Shown: positions 3,726 through 63,170 of the stretch, in pieces
How the letters are laid out: each line of letters begins with the position of its first letter
Numbering within the stretch: the first letter of the stretch is position 1
Source of the DNA: Squalus acanthias
Lineage: Eukaryota
Length of the DNA: 64,000 nt
Direction of reading: 5' to 3'
NCBI GenBank assembly: GCA_030390025.1
Contig: CM059430.1
Location: 3,782,001-3,846,000 of the forward strand
Made by a program: the position numbers and the translations under genes
The notes under the pieces: generated by a model
Databases searched by the model: none
What the model was told of the DNA's origin: nothing
Seen by the model: only the letters and a program-made list of their open reading frames with translations

Positions 3726-4928
3726 CTGATTGAGATTTTTGCTCATTAAGTTCTCCAGCTGTTCGGTGAGAAAAGAAAGTAAGTATTCTTGAGGTTTCTT
3801 GGTGTTACTTCTGAAGAGCTTAACAGCAGCTGCAACAACCCCAGCACAGATAATCTAACCTGTGTAAACATGATCAGATCGTTCCATCAGAGGAGCCATA
3901 CAGTGACTGTGGATGACCCAACATTGTTTCAATTAAAACACTTTTGTATCTCTCTCTCTGCTGGTATTTCACAGTGCAGCTTTTGATTGCCTCTTCCATC
4001 AGTTTTATGTACGTGCTATCAGGTCTGCAGAGCAAGGCTAGCTGGAGACTAGAATGCAGCGAGCATTACATTATACACAGGGGGGCTCAGTGGTCTGAGA
4101 AGTACATCACATGGGGTGAAGTGTAGGGGGGGGGGGCGGTGGGCTTTATGAAGCAAGTAATATATTACTGGTGCTGGAGGGTGGGGAGTTGTGGCATGGA
4201 ATCACAAGTGCTTTACACAAGACATTCTCTGTAAATTAAACTGCGAGTATGAGAAAGTTGTACGAATTCACAACTGCTTTTCTAAGAAGTTCATTGGGTT
4301 AAAAGAGATAAATCAACAGACACTTTTGATGTGAGCAAATCTGAAACTCCATTTGATCTAAAAATCAGATAAGTTTTTTTTAAAAGTCTGAATTTGGGCC
4401 TGAGTTGAAACATGTCAAGTTGAAACGGCCTGTCCCTTTATATTTTAAAATGGCAATACAGAAATGCTGCTCCACCAGTCACGCTCAATCTATTTTGTGA
4501 TTGTCTTTAGTAAAGGTGGAGTTAAAACTTGATCTGACTCCAGTCTTAACGACAACTTTAGCATCCTTGCCATTTTGCAACAGATGCTGCATTTGCAACA
4601 GTAATGTTCTCTGGGACTGCTCGACTGTTCATTGAGATAATGGGGTGGCAGGATGCAGGGTTCATGTTCCCCGATTCCTAAAGTTCCTCATTTCAGCCGT
4701 ACAGCAAGAGGGAGATGTTGAGCAAAATTAGATGTTTCTGTACAGAGAGGGAAGGGAAGCTGGAGTCATAGGCACCTCAACCCGCTCTCATACAAGGTTC
4801 TATCGATCTGGTCCACATTGGGAAATGCCTGGCAACAGATCAGCTGCCCACCATCTCAGCTGGAGTACAGAATAGCAAAAAAATGTAAATAGCTTAGAAA
4901 GGACAAAATCAAAACTGAACAATAACTA

Positions 4929-5152
4929 TGATGTGGAGATGCCGGTGTTGGACTGGGGTGGACAAAAGTGAGAAGTCGCACAACACCAGGTTATAGTCCA
5001 ACAGTTTTATTTGAAATCACAAGCTTTCGGAGCGGCTGCTCCTTCGTCGGGTGAAGTGACTTCACCTGACGAAGGAGCAGCGCTCCGAAAGCTTGTGATT
5101 TCAAATAAAACTGTTAGACTATAACCTGGTGTTGTGCGACTTCTCACTTTTG
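4929..5152. mobile_element. Penelope-like element terminal repeat (pLTR) as an inverted fold-back pair, flanked by a target-site duplication
   Basis: Arms 4963-5057 and 5059-5152 are reverse complements with 3 differences. Direct repeat tgaacaataacta lies at 4916-4928 and 5151-5163. Each arm has a hammerhead-like core followed by AATAAA. Confidence 0.85.
5062..5098 (+). ncRNA. Minimal type I hammerhead ribozyme motif (Penelope-associated variant)
   Basis: tcac-CTGACGA-a-GGAGC(agc)GCTCC-GAAA-gctt-gtga: catalytic boxes, a 5-bp stem II, palindromic AAGCTT in place of stem III, and tcac/gtga as stem I. Confidence 0.7.
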
Positions 5153-5519
5153 AACAATAACTACTCACACATCAATATATAAATGACATTAGAAGTAGGA
5201 ATTATTAAAGGCCTATAAATTAGTACTGTAAAGCCACAATTTAAAAAGGCTACCGCTATCAAATGGCCTCTATACTGCACTAGGTTCAAACTCAAAGCAG
5301 TGCGAGTTAGTCTTCTGGTGAGGGTCTCACGTCTCAGGGCTTCAGCATGCTTGGTGGCCTCCAGAGTTATACTGCCACTTGTGCATTGATATGCACCCAA
5401 AACTACCTTGCAATGATGCTAAACTCACAGTGTAATTGCACCTTTAGTCTCATCATAAACAACATGCCTTAAAAGCATAGAAAAGATGGCCATCTTTCAA
5501 ATAGTCAGTTCAAAAGTCT

Positions 5520-5930
5520 TCTTGATGCGAGACATTAGCTTTTCACCTCTGCAACATGGGTTCAAATCCAGCCCAGGTGAATGGGATGAAAGTCTCCTCT
5601 GGCTGCAAAAACTACTACTTGAAATGGGTTTGGACAGCCTCAATTCAGTTCCTGGTGCAAATGGGCCCAAGCACAAAACTGTCCCAGATCCAGCACAAAT
5701 TAGCAATCTCACTCAGAAAGGTCATAAATGGTGTGGGATGTGGAAAAAATGTCACACTAGTGCAGCAGAGTGTGCTCTTCTGCGGTTGGAGCCGAGGCAT
5801 GTCACTGAAGCAAAGTAGCAGGAGCTTTAATCTCCATCTGGCTCTGTTAAACCTGAGCGAGGTGTGCTTGGTGCCAACAACGTGTGCCTAAAATGGGAAT
5901 AGGACCATGCCCCAGCCCCAACATCTCTCA
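5520..5930 (+). mobile_element. LF-SINE-like tRNA-derived SINE, degenerate
   Basis: gcttttcacctct..gggttcaaatccagcccaggt (B-box)..tgaaatgggtt..ttcagttcctggtg..cacaaaac follows the recalled LF-SINE consensus. A related copy is at 52920-53240. Confidence 0.6.
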
Positions 5931-10218: not shown

Positions 10219-11983
10219 GGGGGGGGGGGAGCAGGGGCTGGTGGGGGATGGTGGGGGGGTCAGTGGCTGCGTTTGGTGGCGGGTCGGGTAGGAATTATTT
10301 TTTTTGACAGCGGGTAGGGAACCCACTGTCAATCCGCCTCCATGCTAGTCTCCCAGATGTTGGGTCTGTCATCGCTGAACAGGCCCGACACCAAGCGGCG
10401 GGGGAGGCAATTTAGATCATTAAGAGCTTGTTAACAGGCACTTAAAAACTATTTTAAGCTCACTTTTAGATTTTAAGAGTTCGCCCACGGGTTCCCCACT
10501 GCTCGGGGAACACGTCAGGTAAGGAGGTCGGGAGTTGTGTCAGCATGGGATGATTTCTTAACGTGACAGCTGAAAATGGTGTATAAAAGCTCCCATTTCA
10601 CTTTCTAAGGTTAGAAGCTTTGCTAAATGCATTTGGAAGACAGATTGAGCTTTATGCAGGTTGCAAGTGCTTGGAGCAAACTCTCTATCCAGTGTCACCT
10701 CATTGGAACAACCTCTCTCACCATTGACAGATCCCTTCTGTCATCTCAAGTTCACCTGCCAGCTATTCCATCAGCATTGGTGCTCTTAAAACTATCTCAC
10801 CTTGGTCCTCAGAATCCCACCACGATCAGCCACAACACCAGCAGCACCAGGCACACCAGCAGCACCAACAACAACACCAACCTTCTCCGCAATCAACAGG
10901 ACACAGGGCATCAGCACCCGACCACATTGCTGCCCGGGACGCCAGGGATGGCCTCACCATGGCCAGATTTACTTCACTTGACGCTGTACACCCTGGCTGC
11001 CACATGATGCGCCAGGTTGGCACCACCCTACACCAACATCATAAAGCATCCCTACAATGCCCAAGCCATTCCTTTTATACTCATCACCATTGCGGGGGTA
11101 CCATTATGTCTCACCATTCACTGCAACTCACTAAGCCACTTCCAAAGGTGCACACAAATCTGTCCAAGAATGCAAGGTTTTGAAAATAAAGATTTCAATG
11201 TTTGACAGCACATTAACAGAAACTTTACATGAACATTGCATAAAACACCCAAGTGCCTACCCTTGTGTGTTGTTAGTTGTTATGATTGGACTAGGATGAG
11301 GGTGAGTGTGAAGGGTGGCTAGTGAGATGGGGAAGTGATAATGTAGATAGAGAGGGATGGGTGGAGGTGCAAGGTATGTTGGTGTGAGTAAGGATGTGCA
11401 GGAGTAGGATAGTGAAGGCAGAGTGATGGGGATGTGATGAGTGGCACAGCAGGATAAGGTTGAGTGTGGCTTGGCAGTAATGTTTCGTGATCTACTGAGA
11501 TCATTGAAAGGTTTGCGCCACTGCAGCCTGGTCCTCCTGACGACATCCCTGCTTGTGTCCTCCTGTGCAATGTTCAACCAGGCTGCGTTGATCTCCTGGG
11601 GAGGTCTCTTCCGCCCACTGGAAGGGAAGAAAACCTCCCTGCGTGCTGTGACTCCCTCCATAAGCATATGGAGGGAGTCATGGGAGAGCCTGGGTGCAGC
11701 CGTGCATCTCTGCGCAGTGCTTGTCAGTGTTTGCAGCACCTCAATGCTGTAGAACACTGACAGCACAACTGTCAAAATCAATGTGGACATGACCCCTTTA
11801 AGGAAACCGGCTGATGACGCATCATCAAATGACGTCATCAGACCCGTTTCCTTCAATTGGCCGGGAAATGCACTGGGTGGGCTTAGCATCATTTCACAGA
11901 GCCGACTGGAGCCAGCAGTGGGGTCGTATCCCGCTACCGACCCTGGCCACACCGGACCCGCCCAGGTAGGCGAAATCGCAGCC
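10219..11983 (-). mobile_element. Non-autonomous PIF/Harbinger element, copy 1, with Myb/SANT-like ORF
   Basis: Colinear with 32845-34543 and 43423-45125. Right terminus gcgaaatcgcagcc is intact. The left TIR has degraded into a G-rich tract. Confidence 0.8.
11480..11725 (-). pseudogene. Harbinger Myb/SANT-like (trihelix) DNA-binding domain coding segment
   Basis: Within ORF 11257-11991: APRLSHDSLHMLMEGVTARREVFF..RKRP..AWLNIAQE....VVRRTRLQWRKPFNDL fits the Myb/SANT pattern W..IA..V.....RT..QC.K.FNDL. Confidence 0.75.
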
Positions 11984-17613: not shown

Positions 17614-18301
17614 GGGCCGTATTTTCCGATCCCTACAGGTGTGTACGAGCTGTGGACACACCCGTAGGGACCTCGCAAGTGCTGGTTTCAGGCATGCGAA
17701 GCGCATGCGCTGAAAACTGGCATTTCCAATCCGTCAAGAATCCTCTTGACCGATCAGACGCCTGCCCTGGAGAAGGGCCTCTGCGGGTGGAGTGTTCCGC
17801 TTTCTAAGGGTAAAAATCTTACGCTTTTACCAGCATAAGAGTTTAAAAAAGTTAAAAAAAAAAATTTCCACTCATTTATTATGTAAAAATACTTTTAAAA
17901 AAAGGTACGTTTATTTTTAGCCCCGTAAAAAACTTTAATTATTTTTTTCAAAAAATTAAATTTTTATTTAAAATATTTAATTTAATGTAATTTTAACTCA
18001 TTTTAAAAACGTGATTTAAAAAAAAAATTATTTAATGTTGTAGTGTCTTTTTTCAGTGATTCCCCATTCATACTTTTGACAGGTCTACCTGTCAAAAGTA
18101 TGAAGGGGGATTCCCTTCTCCCATTGGCTCGCCTGGCCCAGGTGATCCCAGGGACGCTTGCCTGTGCCCCTGGGATACCTGGGCCTCTGCGCGCGTGCAC
18201 CAGGAGAGGTCCAGGATCGGAAGAGTCCGGACCGCAGGAGCCCTCAGGTAAGGGCATAGATTGTTTCCCGATAGGATGCCTCCTATCGGAAATTACAGGC
18301 C
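17614..18301. mobile_element. Harbinger-type MITE (688 bp) with TIRs and 3-bp TSD AGT
   Basis: TIRs gggccgtattttccgat and atcggaaattacaggcc. TSD agt at 17611-17613 and 18302-18304. AT-rich core and a 17-bp perfect internal hairpin at 18067-18104. Confidence 0.85.
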
Positions 18302-32704: not shown

Positions 32705-34978
32705 AAACAACAACAACATTTGTATAGCGCCTTTAACGTAGTAAAACATCCCAAGGTGCTTCACAGGAGTGTCATCAAACAAAATTTGACACAGAAGGAG
32801 ATAAACTTGGGAAAAGAAGGTAGGATTTAAGGAGGAGAGGTACAGGCTGCGATTTTGCTGACCGTGGCGGGCGACGTTGGTGGCGGGTCACAGCCCCGCT
32901 GCTGGCTCCATCCCGCTCTGTGAAATGATTTTCCCTTGATTGGGCTTGTTAAGCCCTCCCAGCGCCTTTGCCGACCAATTAGAGGAAGCGGGTCTGGTAA
33001 AGTCATTTCACGACGCGGCATCAGTCGGTTTCCTTAAAGGGACCATGGCCAACTTTCTTTTGACATTTATGCTGTCAGTGTTCTACAGGATTGAGGTGCT
33101 GCAAACACTGACAATCACTGCACAGAGGCACAGGGCTGCACCCAGGCTCTCCCATGACTCCCTCCATATGCTTATGGATGGAGTCACAGCACGCAGGGAG
33201 GTCCCTCTTCCCTTCCCATTAGCGGAAGAGACCTCCCCAGGAGATCAACACAGCCTGGTTGCACATTGCAAAGGAGGGCACAAGCAGGGATGTGGTCAGG
33301 AGGACCTGGGTGCAGTGGCACAAACCTTTCAATTATCTCAGTAGATCACAAAACGTTAGTACAAAGCCACACTCAGCCTCATCCTGCTGTGCCTCTCATC
33401 ACATCCCCATCACTCTGCCTTCCCTACCCTACTCCTGCACATCCAACACCAACTTATCTTGCACCTCCACCCATCCCTCTCTATCGAAATTATCACTTCG
33501 CCATCTCACTAGCCACCCCTCACACGCACCCTCATCCTAGTGGAATCATACCAACTAACAACATACAAAGGTAGGCACTTGGGTGCTTTATGCAATGTTT
33601 ATGTAAAGTTTCGGTTAATGTGGTGTCAAACATTGAAACCTTTATTTTCAACACTTTGCGTTCTTGGACAGATCTGTGTGCACCTTTGGAAGTGGCTTAG
33701 TGAGTTGCAGTGAATGGTGAGACATAACGGTACCCCCTGCAATGGTGATGAGTGTGAAAGGAATGGCTTGGACATTGTAGGGATGCTTTATGGTGTTGGT
33801 GTGGGGTAGTGCCAACCTGGCGCATCATGTGACAGCCAGGCTGTACAGCGTCAAGTGAAGTAAATCTGGCCATGGTCAGGCCATCCCGGGCCTGCCAGGC
33901 AGCAATGTGGTCGGGTGCTGATGCCCTGTGTCCTGTGCAGCATCAGTTGATTGCGGAGAAGGTTGGTGTGGTTGTTGGTGCTGCTGGTGTTGGGGCTGAT
34001 CGTGGTGGGATTTTGAGGACCAAGCTGAGAGAGTGCAAAGGGCACCCATGCTGATGGAATAGATGGCAGGTGATGTAGAGATGACAGAAGTGATCTGTCA
34101 ATGGTGAGAGAGGTAATGAAGTCAGACTGAATGGAGACTTGTGTAAAGACCTGCAGCATGGTGCATCTGTTGTGGAAATGTAGTGAGGAATAGCTTGTTG
34201 CTGAGGGAAGATATCTCTGTAAGGTGGGAGCTTTTACTTTACATTTGAAGCTGTCAACTCAACAGCTGATTCAATGGCCACTGAACTCCCATCTCAGCTT
34301 TGACAGATGTGGTCCACGACCAGAGTGGACCCTGTGGGCGAGCAGTTAAGTGCAAAAGGTAAGCTGAAAATCTTTCTTACGTGGCTCTAAACAAGCCACT
34401 GAATACCTGAATTAGGTCGCCCGCCGCTGCCTGTTGGGTCTTCTCAGCGCTGACAGACCCGACATTGGGAAAGGCGCGTGGGAGCGAGTTTCCCACCCGA
34501 CCCGCCACCAATCCCGCCCGCTGACCCCCGGAAAATTCCGGCCACAGATTCGGAGAGGCCTAGGGAGGGAATTAGGACCCAGGTAGCTGAAGGCATGAGC
34601 GCCAATGGTGGAGTGAATAAAGTCGAGATTGCGCAAGAGGCCAGAATTGGAGGAGCGAATCTCGAAGGGCTGGAGGACTGGAGGAGGTTACAGAGAGAGG
34701 GAGGAGCAAGGCCATAGAGGGATTTGAAAACAAGGATGAGAATTTTAAAATTGAGGCGTTGCCAGACTGGGCAACAATGTAGGTCTGTGAGCACAGAGGT
34801 GATGGGTGAATGGGACTTGGTGCTAGTTACGATACGAGGGTGGAAGATGGGAGGCCGGCCAGGAGAGCATTGGAATAGTCAAGTCTAGAGGTAACAAAGG
34901 CGTGGATGAGCGTTTCAGCAGCAGATGAGCTGAGGCAGGGCAGAGACGGGCACTATTAAAGGAGGTGGAAGTAGGCAG
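32705..34978 (-). mobile_element. L2 LINE 3' fragment interrupted by Harbinger copy 2
   Basis: The tail at 32705-32770 and the segment 34547-34978 (QRLNFKILILVFKSLYGLAPPSLCNLLQ) match the L2 at 60290-63170. Confidence 0.85.
32845..34543 (+). mobile_element. Non-autonomous PIF/Harbinger element, copy 2 (1699 bp), TSD ACA
   Basis: TIRs ggctgcgattttgc and ggaaaattccggcc. TSD aca at 32842-32844 and 34544-34546. Frameshifted Myb/SANT segment at about 33115-33350. Confidence 0.88.
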
Positions 34979-37902: not shown

Positions 37903-38060
37903 TATACTTGGGTCGACTAGTCCTTGTTAATAATAATGGTGTAGGAATGAGTGTTAAGAACTCCAGGTTTGGTGCTGCAGTCAGTATCAGCAACACCAAA
38001 TCTGGAGTTCTTATCACTCATTCCTACATTAGATCAACAAGAACTAGTATACCAGAGTAC
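37903..38060. repeat. Palindromic fold-back element
   Basis: Inner arms 37940-37978 and 37990-38028 are 36/39 complementary. Outer arms are actagtccttgttaat and atcaacaagaactagt. Confidence 0.8.
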
Positions 38061-43422: not shown

Positions 43423-45125
43423 GGGCAGAATTTTCTGGGTGGATGTGTGGGGGTGGGGGGGGTGGAATCAACGGGTGGGATCGGTGGCGGGTTGAGTGGG
43501 AAATTTGATTTTTTTTTTGACAGCAGGTTGAGACCCCGCTGTCAAGCCACCGCAATGCGCCTTTCCCAATACCGCGTGTGTGATCTCTGATCCAACCCAC
43601 AGAGGCGGGCGACCCGATTAAACCAATTATTGGGTTGTTGACAGATCCTTAATAATGCTTTTAACTTTAACTGCTCACCCACAGGGTCCACGCTGCTCGG
43701 GGACCACATCTGTGAACCAGAGGCGGGAGTTGAATGGCCATTGCTCCAGCTGATTACTTGACAGCTTCAAATGTACAGTAAAAGCTCCCACCTGACAGAT
43801 CATCACTTTCCTCAGCCACAAGCTGTTTCTCAGTCCATTTCCAGCACAGATTCTGCAGACTTTCCACTCTCCATCCACTCTTACCTCATTGGAAGAACTC
43901 TCTCACCATTGCCAGAATGCTTCTGTCATCTCTACTTCACCTGCCATCTATTCCACCAACATGGGTGCCCTTTATACTCTCTCACCCTGGTCCTCAGAAT
44001 CTGACCACGATCAGCCCCAACACCAGCAGCACCAACAACAACACCAACCTTCTCTGCAAAAATCACCTGATGCTGCACAGGACAGCGGGCATCAGCACCC
44101 GAGCACATTGCTGCCCGGGAGGCCAGGGATGGCCTCACTATGGCCACATTTACTTCACTTGACGCTGTACACCCTGGCTGCCACATGATGCGCCAGGTTG
44201 GCATCACTCCACACCAACACCATAAAGCATCCCTACAATGCCCAAGCCATTCCTTTCACACTCACCACTATTGCGGGAGGTACCGTTATGTCTCACCATT
44301 CACTGCAACTCACTAAGCCACTTCCAAAGGTGCACACAAATCTATCTAAGTGTTGAAAATAAAGGTTTCAACGTTTGACAGCACATTAACAGAAACTTTA
44401 CATGAACATTGGATAAAAGACCTAAGTGGCTACGCTTATGTGTTGTTAGTTGGTATGATTGGACTAGGATGAGGGTGAGTGTGAGGATGGCTAGTGAGAT
44501 GGGGAAGTGATAATGTAGATAGAGAGGGATGGGTGGAGGTGCAAGGTAAGTTGGTGTGAGTAAGGATGTGCAGGAGTAGGGTAGGGAAGGCAGAGTGATG
44601 GGGATGTGATGAGAGGCACCGGAGGATGAAGGTGAGTGTGTCTTTGTACTAATGTTTTGAGATCATTGCAACGTTTGCACCACTGCACCCAGGTCCTCCT
44701 GACCACATCCCTGTTTGTGACCTCCTCTGCAAAGTGCGACCAGGCTGCGTTGGTCTCCTGGGGATGTCTCTTCCGCCCATGGGAAGGGAAGAGAACCTCC
44801 CTGTGTGCTGTGGAGGGAGTTATGGGAGAACCTGGGTGCAGTCATTGTCAGTGTTTGCAGCACTTCAATGTTGTAGAACACTGACAGCACAAACTTCAAA
44901 AGTAAGGTGGCCATGATCCCTTTAAGGAAACTGGCTGATGATGCCTCATGGCTGACATCACCAGACCCACTGCCTCTAATTGGGCCGGGAAACATGCTGG
45001 GCGGGCTTAACAAGCCCCATCAACGTAAATTCATTTTCCAGAGCGGGATGGAGCCAGCAGCGGGGCCATGACGTACCACCGACATCGCCCGCCCTGGACC
45101 TGCCGAGGTCAGCAAAATCCCGGCC
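43423..45125 (-). mobile_element. Non-autonomous PIF/Harbinger element, copy 3 (1703 bp), TSD AAT
   Basis: TIRs gggcagaattttc and gcaaaatcccggcc. TSD aat at 43420-43422 and 45126-45128. Colinear with copies 1 and 2. Confidence 0.88.
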
Positions 45126-45557
45126 AATGTCATTAAGCATGGAGACATGTAACGGAGTCATCGCTGTGACCAATCCTCAGAAATTCTGTCGGGCAATTTG
45201 AAAAAGCTTATGACTTAAACTTTCGCACCGTGGTTAGGCATGAATATGAATATGAAGTAGCACTGCAGGACACAAACGGAGAGATGGACAAATACGCAAA
45301 AGAAGCTGTAGTGAAATAGAGACATGTTAACAAGGATGTAGTAGTGAAAAGAAAAAAGTCAATTTAGAGAAAAAACAAATTCTGGGAAATTCCTCTCCAA
45401 CCCCCGAAGATGATCAAAATGAGTTCCAGGAGACCACGGTGACCATGAGGCATATGACCCAACATCCCGCCTACCTTTCGTACACGCCAATATCAGCCTC
45501 AGCCAGGAACTCGCCCCGCTCCCTTTTGAACATTTGCAGTGAATATGCACTAACTGC

Positions 45558-48477
45558 ATGAGCGAAATAGAGGAAAGTGAAAGGCAGACAGAAATAAATG
45601 GTAAAAAGGAGAGGAACAAAAAACAAAGGGCCAAACTAATTCATAAAAAATGTGAGCATAAAAAAAGCCTGAGGGTTTTATACCTTAATGCGAGAAGCAT
45701 CAGGAACAAGGTAGATGAATTAGCTGTGGAAATAGAGGTTAATAATTATGATCTAATTGGGATTACGGAAACATGGTTGCAGGGTGAGCAGGGCTGGGAG
45801 CTTAACATACAGGGGTATTCAGTATTTAGGAAGGATCGACAAAAAAGAAAGGGAGGAGGGGTAGCATTGCTGGTAAAAGAGGGGATAAATGCAATTGAAA
45901 GGAAGGATATTAACTCAGTTAATACAGAATCTATATGGGTGGAGCTAAGAAATAGCGAGGGGCGAAAAACATTAATAGGAGTGGTATATAGGCCTCCAAA
46001 TAGTAAAATAGAGGTTGGGGAGGGCATCACGAGGGAAATTAGAGAAGCGTGCAATAAGAGCACAGCTGTCATCATAGGTGACTTTAACTTACATATAGAT
46101 TGGACTAGCCTAATCAGTAAAAATAATGAGGAGGAGGAATTCCTTGAGTGTTTAAGGGATGGTTATCTGGATCAATATGTCGAGGAACCAACTCGGGAAC
46201 AGGCTATATTGGACTGGGTACTGTGCAATGAGAAGGGACTAATTAGTAATCTTGTTGTACGGGGACCCTTGGGTCAGAGCGATCATAACATGATCGATTT
46301 CTCACTCGAAATGGAGAGCGAAGAAATTGACTCAGAGACTCAGGTCCTGAATTTAAACAAGGGGAATTATGATGCCATTAGACGGGAACTGAGTAGGTCT
46401 GATTGGACAACGTTCCTGGGAGGACTGGAGGTAGATAAACAATGGCAAGCATTTAAAGATAGAATGACAAAATTGCAAAAATTGTTTATACCAATCTGGC
46501 ATAAAAGGAAATCTAAAAAGGTGACTCAACCGTGGATAACAGGGGAAATTAGAGACAGCATAAAATCCAAAGATAGGGCGTATAAAATAGCCAAAAAACG
46601 CGCCAGAGCGGAAGATTGGGAACAGTTTAAGATAGAGCAAAGGAGGGCAAAGGGCTTAATCAAGAAGGGCAAAATAGCTTACGAAAGCAAGCTGGCGGAA
46701 AATATAAAAACTAACTCCAAAAGCTTTTATAAGTATATCAAGAGGAAAAGACTGGTGAAAACCAAAGTTGGTCCATTGCAGTCAGATACGGGGGAATATA
46801 TAATGGGAAATAAGGAAATGGCAGACCAACTAAATGCATACTTTGGGTCAGTCTTTACGAAGGAAGACACAAAAAACCTCCCTGGGATATCGGGAAAAAT
46901 AGGGACATTGGCAAAGGAGGAACTGACGCAAATCAATATCTCTAAGGATATGGTGTTAAGGAAGCTAAAGGGATTGAAGGCGGACAAATCCCCAGGGCCT
47001 GATAACATGCATCCTAGGGTACTGAAGGAGGTGGCCCTAGAGATAGCGGATGCACTAAGCATGATTTTTCAGAATTCATTAGACTCGGGAACAGTGCCCA
47101 TGGATTGGAGGGTAGCTAACGTTACCCCACTATTCAAAAAGGGGGGTAGGGAAAAAGCAGGTAATTACAGACCTGTAAGCCTTACATCAGTTGTGGGCAA
47201 AATGCTGGAGTCCATCATTAAGGATGAAATAGCCGAGCACTTAGCAAATGGGGACAGGATAGGACAGAGTCAACATGGATTTACAAAGGGTAAATCGTGC
47301 TTGACTAATCTATTGGAATTTTTTGAGGGAGTAACGGGTAAAATAGATGGGGGAGAGCCAGTAGATGTGGTGTACCTGGACTTCCAAAAGGCCTTCGATA
47401 AGGTCCCACATAAAAGATTAGCATGGAAAATTGAAGCTCATGGGATAAAGGGGAAAGTATTGACGTGGATAGAGAACTGGCTGTCAGATAGAAAACAGAG
47501 AGTTGGAATAAACGGCTCATTTTCTGAATGGCAGGCAGTAACAAGTGGGGTACCACAGGGATCTGTCCTGGGTCCCCAGCTGTTCACAATTTATATTAAT
47601 GACCTGGATCAGGGAGTCGAATGCAGCATTTCCAAATTTGCAGACGACACTAAACTAGGAGGGGGGGGTGGGCTCAGAGGAGGAGACCAGGAAGCTCCAG
47701 AGCGATTTGGACAGACTGGGTGATTGGGCGGATAAATGGCAGATGCACTATAATGTGGACAAGTGCGAAGTTATCCACCTTGGGTGCAGGAACGGGAGGG
47801 CAAATTATTATTTAAATGGCAATAAATTGGGAGAGGGGGAAGTACAGAGAGACCTGGGTGTTCTTGTACACCAGTCACTGAAGGCGAGCATGCAGGTGCA
47901 ACAGGCGGTCAAGAAGGCAAACGGTATGCTGGCCTTCATAGCAAAAGGGTTGGAATACAGGAACAGGGATACCTTGCTGCAGCTGTACAGGGCACTGGTG
48001 AGACCACACCTCGAGTACTGTGTACAGTTTTGGTCGCCTCATCTGAGGAAAGATGTTCTTGCCATGGAGGGGGTGCAGCGGCGATTCACCAGGCTGATAC
48101 CAGGAATGGCGGGATTGACCTATGAGGAGAGACTATGTAGTTTAGGGATGTACACACTGGAGTTTAGAAGATTGAGAGGGGACCTCATAGAAGTGTATAA
48201 AATTCTGACAGGTCTAGACAGATTAGATGCAGAAGGAATGTTTCCCTTGGCGGGTGAGAACAGAACTAGAGGACATAATTTAAGGATAAGGGCTAAACCA
48301 TTTAGGACAGAAATGAGGGGGAATTTCTTCACTCAGAGAGTGGTGAACCTGTGGAACTCATTGCCACAGAGGGCAGTGTACGCCAGCTCATTAAATATAT
48401 TTAAGAGGGAATTAGATATATTTCTACAGGCAAAAGGGGTTAAGGGTTACGGAGAGAAGGCGGGGACGGGATACTGA
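45558..48477 (+). CDS. CR1 ORF2: APE endonuclease plus reverse transcriptase, with a single frameshift in a G8 run at 47661-47668
   Basis: YLNARSI, ITETW, GDFN, SDHN (endonuclease); [33 protein letters not shown] (RT). Removing one G joins ORFs 45558-47723 and 47668-48477 into 972 aa. Confidence 0.92.
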
Positions 48478-51500: not shown

Positions 51501-52919
51501 TATTATCGCAGGTTTATGAAACCACCGCCATGCCAGTTAAGAGTAGAACTAGTACAATTTGCTCAGTTTCTGAATCATGTGAGTGAGGCGTAACCCTGTT
51601 ACAAAACTCAAACCTTCTTCCCAGCATTTCACTGACCCTATGCCATGGCTTCCACTGACATTTAACCCCAATCCCCTCAGCGGTGAGATTAGTAAATCAG
51701 GATAAAGACTGTGCACAGACCTTACACTCCATTAAACACAGGTCAGCCAGATTTACTGCGCTTCTATCTTGACGTAGCTTACTTCATCCCTGGACCACTG
51801 TCCTGAAACAGCTGCCTGTGATAACTGTCCTCAGCTCCCATCTGAGTTGATATCTAATTCATAATCAATCTGGGGAACATCACAATCTCAACTCTACCCT
51901 AGGCTGAGACTGGTAAAACATATCACTCATGGGACCATTAACAGCCATGGATGACAGGTACCCTCCAAACTTTACAGGTAATTTGCACTATGAAAAGTCA
52001 TGCCAACATCTGGCCATTTAGGGGCACTGGTCTCAAAATTTTCATTTTATTGACTTAAGTAAAAATAGACAGTTTTTCACAAAATTGCACCTTTTGCTCA
52101 TTTGCATGAAGATGTTGCATTGTTTGTGCAGAGATGATGACTATATTGCAGAACATAAGAGTATACCAGAGGAAATAAAATCAATAATATCAGAGGCTAA
52201 TATAGAATATAGCGTAAAAAAATCATTTAACTGCAGAGATGTCATCAGCTAAGTGAATAACATAATTAAAACAGTATAGAATATAGTGCAAAAAACCTTT
52301 TAATAGATCTGAGTTTTCTTAAAAGCCCTTAAGCAAAGAGATTGGAAATGGTGCAAATACATGACCCTGGGAGATTGATGCAAATCACTGTCCTCAGTCA
52401 CATGAAAGCTAATGAAAGTGGGCCACTGTAATGAGATTCAAAGCCTCTCATATTATCCTTATGAAGGCAGACAAAAAAATGTGTAGAGCTATTACAGGAA
52501 TATTTGAAAATATCTCCTTCCTCGAGAACAATTGGTGGACTTTCACTAAGAGTCATGACATTCAGTGTCCTTCACCTCTGGTGAGCCAGGTACAAAATCA
52601 GCATTGGGAAAACTGAAGGAAAATGTCAAAAGATGCAAGGGTAAATTCAGCAAGTCTCCTCTTCTGGCATGGAGCCTCACTAGACAGGATCATTGACTGG
52701 AGATAAGGCTATAATACTAAGGCCCAATACTCCAATTGCTGCTTCCGTCTAGCAAGGCTCCACACCAGAAGTACAGCCTCGCTGAATTTACTCAATTTTG
52801 TTCCTTTGTGGCTATGGTTGCTCGTGGATCCATATGTCTTTATTGGAAAATACAACCAAAACAAACTCCCAACCTATTTGAATGAATATTAATTCAAAAA
52901 AGATTGGGTGGTACGTAGG

Positions 52920-60290: not shown

Positions 60291-63170
60291 CACTTGCGAA
60301 CAAGGCCCTTGCCATCCATGAGCTTATCGTGGATGACCGCATCGACATCATGGCTCGGACAGAAACTTGGCTGACGGATGATCACACCTTACCCTTAAAT
60401 TAAGCCTCTCCACCTGGCTATACCTTCCACCACTTGCCCCGCTCAGACCGCCATGGTGGCGGTGTGGCTCTCATCACCAAATCACACCTTGGTCTGTCCC
60501 CCTACTCCTCCGACACTATCTCCTCCTTTGAGCATCTCACCTTGTTCCACCCCTCTCACCTCTCATTTAAAATTGTCATTCTCTACCACCCACCCAAGTA
60601 CGATAAAAATTTTATCACTGAGATATCCTCACTGCTTTCCTCCCTCAGCCTCTGCACCGAACAACTTCTCATCCTCGGTGATTTCAACCTCCATCTCAAT
60701 TCATCATGCTCTCTCTCCTCTGAGTTCACTACCTTCCTATCCTCCCTTACTCTCTCCCTCCATGTAAACTCCCCAACCCATATACACGGCCAGCCTCTTG
60801 ACCTTGACATCTCTCGTGGCCTCGCTACTCCCACCGTGTCAATCGAAGATAAAGCCATCTCTGACCACTTCCTCGTATCGCTCTCCACCCACGTCCCCCT
60901 TCCACCCCACCCCCAACCCTACTTCCTTCTGTGTCCGCCCTGGAAAAAACTCTCTCCCAACTCTCTCACAGCTGCACTTACGAAATCCCAACTGTCCAGC
61001 CTTTGGCCCTCCATTCACCATGACATTTCTGCAGTTACTGATCTGCTCAACCACACCCTCACCACCACCTTTGATGCCCTAGTCCCTATTAAAACCATTA
61101 CAATCTCTCACCCTGGCCATTCCCCCTGGTACGGCCCACATCTTCACTCGCACAAGTCCAAGGGGCGCAGACTTGAACAGATATGGCGGACAACTGGTTT
61201 AGCCATTCACCGCCAGATGTGGCTGGAACACATAAAGCATTATCAGGTCCTGCTCTCGTCTGCCAAAACTGCTCACTATTCCAGGATCATTCTGGAATGC
61301 AAAGATAACCCCCAGCTACTATTTTTTACTGCTAACTGTCTTCTTAAACCCCTCTCTCCTGCCTCCTCCACCCTCACCTCCAACAACAAGTGCGAGGAAC
61401 TCATGGACTTCTTTGTCTCGAAGTTTGAGACCATCCGATCAGCTGCCTCTGCCACTTCCCTTCCTTCCCCTCGCCCACCAGGCCAAACTTCCTCTAAGGT
61501 TCCCCCTGCCCTAGCCCTGAACTCACATCTTTCTCCAGTTTCTCTCCAATCTCCCCTCTTGACCTCTCCACGCTCATCCTGTCCATGAGACCCACTTCCT
61601 GCTCCCTCGACCCTATTCCCACTGAACTGCTGACCACCCAACTTCCTTTTCTGGCTCCCATGTTAGCGGTTCTCTCTCCTCAGGTACTGTCCCCCTCTCC
61701 TTCAAATCTGCCATCATCACCCCTCTCCTCAAAAAACCAACCCTTGACCCCTCCGTCCTTGCAAACTACCGCCCCATCTCCAACCTCCCTTTCCTCTCCA
61801 AAGTCCTTGAACGTGTTGTCGCCTCCCAAATCCGTGCCCATCTTTCCTGCAACTCCATGTTTGAATCCCTCCAATCCTGTTTCCACCCTTGCCATGGTAC
61901 CGAAACGGCTCTCATCAAAGTCACAAATTACATCCTTTGTGACTGTGACAAAAGTAAACTATCTCTCCTCGTTCTTCTTGACCTGTTTGCAGCCTTTGAC
62001 ATGGTTGACCACTGCATCCTCCTCCAACAACTCACCACCATCGTCCAGCTGGGTGGGACTGCACTCGCCTGGTTCCATTCTTATCTATCGAATCGTAACC
62101 AGAAAATCACCTGCAATGGCTTCTCTTCCCACTCCCACATCATTACCTCTGGTGTCCCCCAAGGATCTTTCCTTGGCCACCTCCTATTTCTCATCTACAT
62201 GCTTCCCCTTGGCGACATCATCTGAAAACACAGCGTCAGTTTCCACATGTATGCCGACGACACCCAGCTCTACCTCACGACCACCTCTCTCGACCCCTCC
62301 ACGGTCTCTAAATTGACACACTGCTTGTCCGACATCCAATACTGGATGAGCAGAAATTTGCTCCAATTAAATATTGGGAAGACCGAAGCCACTGTCTTCG
62401 GGCCCTGCCACCGACTCCATCCCTCTCCCTAGCCACTGTCTGAGGCTGAACCAGACCATTCACAACCTAGATGTCATATTTGACCCTGAAATGAGCTTCC
62501 GACCACATATCCGCAGCATAACTAAGACCACCTATTTCCACCTCCGTAACATTGGCCACCTCTGCCCCTGCCTCAGCTCATTTGCTGCTGAAACCCTCAT
62601 CCATGCCTTTGTTACCTCTAGACTTGACTATTCCAACACACTCCTGGCTGGCCTCCCACATTCTACCCAACGTAAACTTGAGGTCATCCAAAGCTCAGCT
62701 GTCCTAACTCGTACCAAGTCCCGTTCACCCATCACCCCTGCGCTCGCTGACCTACATTGGCTCCCGGTTAAGCAACGCCTTGATTTCAAAATTCTCATCC
62801 TTGTTTTCAAATTCCTCCATGGCCTCGCCCCTCCCTATCTCTGTAATCTCCGTCAGCCCCACAACCCCCCCCCGAGGTATCTGCGCTCCTCAAATTCTGC
62901 CCTCTTGAGCATCCCTGATTATAATCGCTCAACCATCGGTGGCCGTGCATTCAGCTGCCAAGGCCCTAAGCTCTGGAACTCCCTCCCTAAACCTCTCCAC
63001 CTCTCTACCTCTCTTTCCTCTTTTAAGGCGCTCCTTGAAACCTCCCTCTTTCACCTGCCCTAATTTCTTATGCGGCTCGGTGTCAATTTTTTTGTCTGCT
63101 AACACTCCTGTGAAGCGCCTTGGGACATTTTACTATGTTAAAGGTGCTATATAAGTACAAGTTGTTGTTG
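60291..63170 (+). mobile_element. L2-clade LINE, 5'-truncated, ORF2 (endonuclease plus RT) disrupted by several stops and frameshifts
   Basis: ETW, GGGVA, LGDFN, ISDH (endonuclease); LLDL.AAFD.VDH, GVPQGS.LG, YADDTQLY (RT); LHWLPVKQR. C-rich strand with a (gtt)n tail. Confidence 0.95.

What the first reader, a model, noticed from the sequence alone, without database searches (positions are those of the whole stretch)
4916..5163. TSD-flanked fold-back element with two head-to-head minimal hammerhead ribozymes
Seen: ~94-bp inverted arms meet at a 1-nt apex (5058). Each arm starts just 5' of a hammerhead core (CUGACGA, 5-bp stem II, GAAA, palindromic AAGCUU) and continues to AATAAA. A 13-bp direct repeat flanks the unit and there is no ORF. 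Known: Penelope-like elements carry minimal hammerheads in their pLTRs and leave inverted terminal copies, and minimal hammerheads with palindromic stem III are thought to cleave as dimers. Inference: this may be a non-autonomous, retrozyme-like unit that moved as a ~225-nt ribozyme hairpin. A transcript from either strand would contain a ribozyme locked in a long dsRNA stem, a possible ADAR or Dicer substrate or co-transcriptional switch.
Basis: partly seen in the sequence, partly recalled or inferred. Interest (0 to 1): 0.72.

Follow-up and report, generated by a model that had tools for sequence, protein, structure and literature searches.

The report
Penelope hairpin records ribozyme template jump
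This 222-base DNA hairpin is one of thousands of short mirror-image stumps of a known kind of jumping gene (Penelope-like), not a mobile unit of its own, and differences between its two halves suggest that the copying enzyme likely switches RNA templates at the element's built-in ribozyme.

Summary
The hairpin and 13-bp TSD are real, but only the + arm has an intact hammerhead core, and a 34-nt one-sided tail was missed. Each arm is the 5' UTR/pLTR of an autonomous Neptune-type Penelope element in this genome. The unit did not move as a hairpin: only 197 of 1,968 short fold-backs share this apex, and 50 sampled show 32 junctions. Apexes cluster at the likely capped RNA start (TATA at -30, extra G 3,971 vs A 586). 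In 108 of 110 pairs exactly one arm is tailed. Arms often differ inside the ribozyme (32/108) but rarely downstream of its predicted cut (4/107, 0/41). The two pLTRs of full-length copies show the same split (9/24 vs 1/22). Best reading: two cDNAs from one RNA joined head to head, one having jumped templates at or near the cut. The architecture is published and the scan noted it before on other DNA (208 notes); I found no report of the block-wise swap. Cleavage and expression are untested.

The parts
4916..4928 (+). Left target-site duplication, 13 bp
   Evidence: Exact repeat; 90 of 110 related fold-backs have a 10-18-bp TSD, all 90 different
4929..5057 (-). Tailed arm: complete 5' UTR/pLTR of the parent element, arm positions 1-129, from the likely transcription start to the AT of the ORF start codon
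   Evidence: 126-127 of 129 bases match pLTRs directly upstream of ~890-aa RT-endonuclease ORFs in L406 and L408; L077 structure
4929..4962 (-). 34-nt Penelope 'tail', on one arm only
   Evidence: No mirror partner; 108 of 110 short pairs have exactly one tailed arm, none has two
5017..5054 (-). Minimal hammerhead with U4-to-C core change (5049) and 4-nt stem II loop; predicted cut between 5021 and 5020
   Evidence: Sequence; folds to stems I and II; activity untested
5058..5058 (.). Apex G: likely the copied RNA cap of the + arm, and also the complement of the genomic -1 C of the tailed arm
   Evidence: Always G/C in 50 of 50 listed places; G before ACTTCACC 3,971 vs A 586; cap origin inferred
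5059..5150 (+). Tail-less arm: pLTR from the likely transcription start, ending in 2-nt overlap (TG) with the right TSD
   Evidence: short-arm ends cluster at arm positions 89-96 in 79 of 110 pairs
5062..5098 (+). Minimal type I hammerhead with intact core: stem I 5062-5065/5095-5098, CUGACGA 5066-5072, extra A 5073, stem II 5074-5086, GAAA 5087-5090, palindrome AAGCUU 5089-5094; predicted cut 5094|5095
   Evidence: Fold; 98.5% of cells paired and compensatory changes in both stems across 22 family variants
5104..5109 (+). AATAAA in the pLTR (mirror copy on the minus strand); use as poly(A) signal untested
   Evidence: Sequence
5151..5163 (+). Right target-site duplication, 13 bp
   Evidence: Exact repeat

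Best explanation
The hairpin is two copies of the 5' UTR/pLTR of an autonomous Neptune-type Penelope element, likely made as two cDNAs from one RNA at the two nicked strands of the target and joined head to head during a single insertion, one of them probably switching template at or near the hammerhead cut. Shown: arm identity with the parent's pLTR, one-sided tail, distinct TSDs, variable but clustered apexes, and arms that share alleles downstream of the ribozyme but often not inside it. Inferred: (1) transcription starts at the A of ACTTCACC, 30 nt below a TATA box in the upstream copy; (2) reverse transcription starts at two internal sites (arm position 129 and about 89-96) in the same pLTR; (3) one cDNA runs off the capped 5' end and gains C, often then A; (4) the other often continues on a different ribozyme copy (the 3' pLTR of the same transcript or another transcript), which also gives long inverted copies and partial tandems; (5) the cDNA ends anneal through TCA/TGA microhomology, which yields this apex repeatedly and independently. 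The copy in the window has no promoter or ORF and is most likely a dead end.
For: Parent elements with RT (PF00078), CX4CX2C linker and GIY-YIG/CCHH endonuclease follow the same 129 nt. TATATAT at -30 and TC-A-CTT in long arms. G/A at -1 = 3,971/586 where the native base is C or T; G or TG not supplied by the partner in several junctions (L161, L166, L169, L170, L176, L178, L183; AAGT-CA blunt join in L403). One tailed plus one tail-less arm in 108 of 110 pairs. In 110 pairs not chosen by allele: stem II loop differs in 32/108 (51 if random), position 18 in 9/106 (17), position 37 in 6/110 (13), against position 40 1/110 (4.9), 53 4/107 (53), 91 0/41 (16) (loop vs 53 p=2e-7). Position 18 and loop switch together (12 of 13), so the differences are templated. 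All 12 rare variants shared by both arms lie 3' of the cut. Full-length copies: stem II differs between 5' and 3' pLTR in 9 of 24, position 53 in 1 of 22 (8.5 if random). Arms beginning at the predicted cut 359, one base further 96. PMC11167929 shows both-strand nicking and extension and two internal start sites in vitro.
Against: No RNA evidence for the start site, cap or cleavage. Many -1 G's could be supplied by the partner arm. About a third of the 30 inspected cut-site ends have a 4-nt GTGA microhomology, so the excess is nearer twofold (by eye). The switch is not pinned to the cut: position 37 differs in only 10 of 171 pairs, the same stem II alleles occur on older backgrounds that differ on both sides of stem II (L277, L294, L410), and the rare-variant contrast has p=0.07. 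No polarity of alleles between cap-side and other arm. About two thirds of pairs are concordant and cannot exclude simple self-priming. PMC11167929 found the ribozyme dispensable in vitro and no reads ending at the cut. Samples lean on contig C1 and on exact-match patterns.
Confidence: 0.68

Rival explanations
1. Same two-cDNA origin, but the switch is copy-choice at the stem II hairpin or at terminal redundancy left by polyadenylation at AATAAA, and needs no self-cleavage.
For: Position 37 often stays with the downstream block and stem II alleles recur on several backgrounds; AATAAA and a GU-rich stretch lie in the pLTR; ribozyme mutants insert normally in vitro (PMC11167929).
Against: Excess of arms starting exactly at the cut (359 vs 96); position 37 discordance is enriched in loop-discordant pairs (7/52 vs 3/113, p=0.012); L098 and L213 swap position 37 together with the ribozyme block; stems show compensatory change.
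Confidence: 0.3
2. Each hairpin forms by self-priming: one cDNA (or an antisense template, as proposed in PMC3846280) folds back and copies itself.
For: Explains the shared downstream block and shared rare variants; the AAGT junction class fits a TGA-AG-TCA snap-back and is concordant in 7 of 8 pairs.
Against: Predicts identical arms, yet 10 of 46 pairs with the window's apex and 32 of 108 overall differ by recurrent, linked alleles against 1.3% background; the window's own arms differ at the loop; a 1-nt loop cannot prime.
Confidence: 0.15
3. A discrete non-autonomous hairpin unit (retrozyme- or MITE-like) was amplified as a whole.
For: 197 places share the exact apex with perfect flanks; the 40 best hits are near full length at 97-100% with distinct TSDs.
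Against: Those hits were chosen by likeness to the query. The apex is 10% of short fold-backs; 38 copies with this apex show 10 arm-allele combinations and varied short-arm ends; no promoter is inside the unit; the parent's upstream sequence explains the apex by microhomology.
Confidence: 0.06
4. Arms were identical at insertion and later diverged near the apex by ectopic gene conversion after cruciform breakage, or by assembly error.
For: Discordance falls from the apex outwards (0.5-0.6, 0.46, 0.20, 0.08, 0 of random), which a gradient could also give.
Against: Long inverted pairs are alike right up to their apex (43/3,604 differences upstream, 7/818 downstream), and the same ribozyme-block difference appears between direct pLTRs 3.1 kb apart, where there is no apex.
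Confidence: 0.07

Closest known systems
EN+ Penelope-like insertion unit with inverted pLTR, one-sided tail and TSD (Adineta vaga Pen2a_Av, PMC3846280; overview in PMC8557442 Fig. 2 legend; passages read)
   Same: Head-to-head inverted pLTR, 30-40-bp tail on one end, TSD, TATA plus Inr-like TCACT in the pLTR region.
   Different: Here the ORF is absent and the insert is only two pLTR copies; that paper favours antisense self-priming, which discordant arms argue against.
PAc (Poseidon) of Anolis carolinensis, in vitro (PMC11167929; parts 1-2 of 4 read)
   Same: Two internal RT start sites bounding the tail, both strands nicked and extended, AT-rich targets (TSDs here 67% AT), hammerhead in the pLTR.
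   Different: The parent here is Neptune-type; its tail ends at the start codon rather than inside the ORF; genomic copies point to a template jump at the ribozyme, which was dispensable in that assay.
Minimal hammerheads of metazoan PLEs (PMC4209133; results and discussion read)
   Same: Short helix I, extra base before G10.1, palindromic helix III; opposite-strand pairs 100-700 bp apart already noted; high within-genome variability.
   Different: Helix II is 5 bp here; that paper proposes cleavage and circularisation without genomic evidence for a junction.
Non-LTR retrozymes (bioRxiv 10.64898/2026.07.22.740005; part 1 of 5 and passages read)
   Same: Non-coding, PLE-derived, type I hammerhead.
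   Different: Retrozymes are head-to-tail tandem units; this is head-to-head and not a fixed unit.
LINE-1 twin priming and cap-derived extra G (PMC11702581; passages read)
   Same: Second priming from the other target strand gives an inversion with a discrete TSD; full-length copies carry an extra G.
   Different: In L1 the inverted parts are mostly adjacent, different pieces of the RNA; here both cDNAs cover the same 90 nt.

Membership tests
EN+ Penelope-like element (parent) | Single ORF with RT and C-terminal GIY-YIG endonuclease with CCHH motif | tested here: met
   889-910-aa open frames in five copies; RVT_1 above cut-off; GIY-YIG Pfam hit weak, E 6.7e-4 below cut-off, in L056 only; VVYLIRC..C..WYIGE with two later His visible
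EN+ Penelope-like element (parent) | pLTRs from partial tandems, inverted 5'-truncated copy, 30-40-bp tail on one end, variable TSD | tested here: met
   19 of 26 two-pLTR copies have the upstream TATA region; L077; 34-nt tail in 108 of 110 pairs on one side, TSD 10-18 bp
Neptune clade | CX2-5CxxC linker between RT and endonuclease | tested here: met
   CHGNLCKTC; definition from PMC8557442; shared with Nematis
Neptune clade | RT phylogeny with named Neptune elements | not testable with these tools
   No library of named PLE sequences on hand; Neptune versus Nematis not separated
Minimal type I hammerhead | C3UGANGA9 and GAAA core, extra base before G10.1-C11.1, palindromic helix III (+ arm) | tested here: met
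   Sequence 5062-5098; definition from PMC4209133
Minimal type I hammerhead | Intact core in the minus-strand arm | tested here: not met
   U4 is C at window 5049; the same change recurs in some other copies
Minimal type I hammerhead | Helices supported by covariation | tested here: met
   98.5% paired; C-G to U-G to U-A in stem I, C-G to U-A in stem II; 0/500 shuffles reach the score, but only 2 pairs change on both sides and rows are related
Minimal type I hammerhead | Self-cleavage, as a dimer | not testable with these tools
   No assay; the computed lowest-energy dimer paired through stem II, not helix III; Rfam gave no hammerhead hit
Non-LTR retrozyme | Head-to-tail tandem units, each with a hammerhead | tested here: not met
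   Head-to-head arrangement
Non-LTR retrozyme | Circular RNA of unit length | not testable with these tools
   No raw RNA reads laid
MITE or fold-back DNA transposon | Inverted repeats at both termini, fixed internal structure and TSD length (recalled definition) | tested here: not met
   34-nt unpaired tail, variable apex and short-arm end, TSD 10-18 bp

The most novel reading that the evidence does not exclude
The Penelope hammerhead marks a strand-transfer point. Reverse transcription starts in the 5' pLTR, reaches the self-cleaved end and jumps to a ribozyme 5' half from the 3' pLTR or from another transcript. This one step would explain how an internally primed element copies its ORF, why it forms partial tandems that restore the upstream TATA promoter, and why its ribozymes vary so much within a genome. 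The short hairpins would be the fossil record of that jump.
Probability: 0.4. Interest if true: 0.78.

Novelty: new member of a known kind. Interest (0 to 1): 0.5.

Why it matters
The hairpin itself is an ordinary dead-end product of a very abundant retroelement. Its value is as evidence. How Penelope-like elements form tandem and inverted insertions, and what their hammerhead does, are open questions; the one in vitro study read here found the ribozyme dispensable. The allele patterns in these hairpins and in full-length copies point to a template switch at the ribozyme and argue against the published self-priming model for at least a third of insertions. This gives a direct test with an allele-marked donor. 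Thousands of near-perfect 90-bp hairpins could also be a source of double-stranded RNA, but that is untested.

Tried and rejected
Rfam: only a MIR821 hit (100.9 bits, gathering score 249), read as a generic long-hairpin match; no hammerhead family hit. PDB sequence search with the parent ORF: 0 matches. RNA evidence: no RNA holder listed; the one raw RNA run laid 0 reads; contig runs show only that the family occurs in other organisms' data. Empty-site test: none of four runs covered the unique flanks. Fixed polarity (cap-side arm always one allele): not seen in 38 same-apex pairs. A first impression of hybrids between the two main subfamilies (L167, L175, L182) was dropped: they differ by one core base only. 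A sharp boundary at position 37 was weakened by targeted searches: 37C and 40A mark older subfamilies and are mostly concordant. Linkage among tailed arms did not show a clean break at the cut. The -1 G arising by a switch to the internal GACTTC site: 0 of 30 junctions show the expected upstream letters. Dropped rows: L001-L030 were kept out of the main counts (chosen by likeness to the window); pairs with other stem types were filtered out; 8 of 23 long pairs were not true or long inverted pairs; 34 of 60 ORF-joined loci lacked one of the two pLTR anchors and L441 duplicates L440. No host gene was recognised among 15 of 43 window ORFs scanned. Paper searches found no report of allele swapping at the ribozyme; subscription journals, Repbase and supplements were not seen.

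Full report
Observation. The window holds a 222-nt insert (4929-5150) between two exact 13-mers (4916-4928, 5151-5163). Arms 4963-5057 and 5059-5152 are inverted around one G and differ at three places: 5049, a 1-nt indel in the stem II loop, and 5116. The + arm has a complete minimal type I hammerhead (5062-5098, predicted cut 5094|5095). The minus arm has C in place of core U4. The 34 nt at 4929-4962 have no partner. Rfam gave only a below-threshold plant miRNA hairpin match.

What the arms are. The genome has 3.71 Gb; that it is a cartilaginous fish is my recollection of the repeat, not a call result. A 29-mer of the arm occurs 34,866 times, the reversed control 0 times. L077 shows the parent: an inverted 5'-truncated copy joined to pLTR, ORF, 3' UTR, pLTR. 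The arm is the whole stretch from ACTTCACC to the AT of the start codon, so it is both 5' UTR and pLTR. Five copies keep 889-910-aa open frames with RT, a CX4CX2C linker and a GIY-YIG/CCHH endonuclease, which fits Neptune (or Nematis) by the definition in PMC8557442 (passages). The window's tailed arm matches these pLTRs at 126-127 of 129 bases. Across 22 family variants the two ribozyme stems are 98.5% paired with compensatory changes in each; rows are related, so this is support and not proof.

Not a mobile hairpin. The 40 best DNA hits share the apex and have different TSDs, but they were chosen by likeness. In the first 100 exact hits on contig C1, head-to-head spacings run from 35 to about 2,900 nt; the window's is 79. 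Of 1,968 fold-backs with perfect 12-nt flanks and a 0-30-nt gap, 197 have the window's apex; the first 50 show 32 junctions, the window type 4 times. Thirty-eight same-apex copies carry 10 allele combinations. So the unit is rebuilt at each insertion.

Why the apexes cluster. Long arms carry TATATAT 30 nt upstream of the A in TC-A-CTT, a TATA plus initiator layout also described for Adineta pLTRs (PMC3846280, passages). The native base before ACTT is C or T, yet G precedes it 3,971 times and A 586 times. Of 30 G junctions, 18 read TG-ACTT (by eye), and in several the G or TG is not supplied by the partner; L403 shows AAGT-CA joined bluntly to another arm. An extra G from the cap is described for full-length LINE-1 (PMC11702581, passages). 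I infer that one cDNA ends in AAGT-C(A). Its TCA can pair with any TGA in the other cDNA; the two nearest give the frequent GGTGACTT junction and the window's AAGTGACTT. Many G's could also come from the partner arm, so the cap reading is likely, not shown.

One RNA, two cDNAs. In 110 short pairs not chosen by allele, 108 have one tailed and one tail-less arm and none has two tails; long arms end at 128-129 in 94, short arms at 89-96 in 79; 90 have a TSD of 10-18 bp, all different, 67% AT. This matches the two internal start sites and both-strand extension of PAc in vitro (PMC11167929, parts 1-2 of 4).

The arms differ in blocks. In the same pairs the stem II loop differs in 32 of 108 (51 if arms paired at random), position 18 in 9 of 106 (17) and position 37, the last base before the cut, in 6 of 110 (13). 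Downstream, position 40 differs in 1 of 110 (4.9), 53 in 4 of 107 (53) and 91 in 0 of 41 (16) (loop against 53, p=2e-7). Background difference is 1.3%. Position 18 and the loop change together in 12 of 13 cases, so these are copied alleles. All 12 rare variants present in both arms lie downstream of the cut (12 shared, 115 private; upstream 0 and 36; p=0.07). Long inverted pairs are alike throughout (43/3,604 and 7/818 differences in 15 of 23 pairs), which argues against conversion near apexes. In 25 full-length copies with both pLTRs, stem II differs between them in 9 of 24 scored, position 53 in 1 of 22 (8.5 if random). Of 26 such loci, 19 have the TATA region upstream and one begins with the extra G. 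Arms that begin exactly at the predicted cut number 359, one base further 96; about a third of 30 inspected have a GTGA microhomology, so the real excess is nearer twofold.

Mechanism. Shown: the identities, counts and block pattern above. Inferred: both cDNAs copy the same downstream block of one pLTR; one runs to the cap; the other often continues on a different ribozyme copy, from the 3' pLTR of the same transcript or another transcript; the ends are joined by microhomology. The window's own arms fit: loop alleles differ while the diagnostic downstream sites agree. PMC4209133 proposed cleavage and circularisation as the source of tandems and noted opposite-strand ribozyme pairs; a pure circle would give identical pLTRs, so the 9 of 24 differences need a second template.

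Against and open. The switch is mapped only to arm positions 25-53. Position 37 differs in 10 of 171 pairs; it tracks the loop (7/52 vs 3/113, p=0.012) but the same stem II alleles also sit on older backgrounds that differ on both sides, so exchange happens elsewhere too. A pause at stem II or redundancy from polyadenylation could give a similar pattern with no cleavage. There is no allele polarity between cap-side and other arm. Concordant pairs, above all the AAGT class (7 of 8), could be self-primed. No RNA data were obtained. PAc ribozyme mutants inserted normally in vitro. Samples lean on C1 and on exact patterns.

Novelty. Inverted pLTR, tail and TSD are published. The scan holds 208 notes with these words in at least 26 genomes; several reach the same readings on RNA start, two-strand copying and ends at the cut. 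I formed my reading before seeing them, and they are not independent support. Two word searches of the notes and seven paper searches found no account of ribozyme-block swapping between arms or pLTRs; supplements and subscription papers were not seen. Verdict: a new member of a known kind, interest 0.5, carried by the testable template-jump evidence.

Noticed in passing
G000:C19:16456606-16457181: Nine exact hits of the tail/ORF-start motif spaced 68 bp apart: a short tandem array made from the Penelope start region.
   Followed up: no
L348, L352, L360, L367, L369, L374: pLTR plus only 55-111 nt of ORF; in L348, L360, L367 and L369 a new pLTR follows directly, mostly from near +1: tandems that look like end-to-internal template jumps.
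   Followed up: partly
L316/L317 and L326/L327: A 3-nt deletion just downstream of the ribozyme is shared by both arms in two separate fold-backs and recurs at two more places.
   Followed up: no
L264-L314: Subfamilies with C at the cleavage position (H17) and a U-A pair in stem I; the window's subfamily has U17, by recalled rules a weaker cleavage site.
   Followed up: partly
L408:920-3595 (-), L410, L422, L449, L458: Open frames of 889-910 aa; L408 has near-identical pLTRs and an upstream TATA region, so the family may have been active recently.
   Followed up: partly
Not tested against background.
   Followed up: no
window 45543-47723 (+), 60404-61588 (+); repeats at 10241-11983, 32845-34477, 43447-45125: LINE fragments: endonuclease plus RT in a 726-aa frame, an endonuclease fragment, and three 76-81% alike copies of another repeat.
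   Followed up: partly
window 37905-38059, 18055-18116, 52641-52791: Three older imperfect palindromes (71-87%), with no match to the Penelope arm.
   Followed up: no
window 5491-5845: A separate repeat covered by contigs of other organisms' runs, SINE-like by appearance.
   Followed up: no
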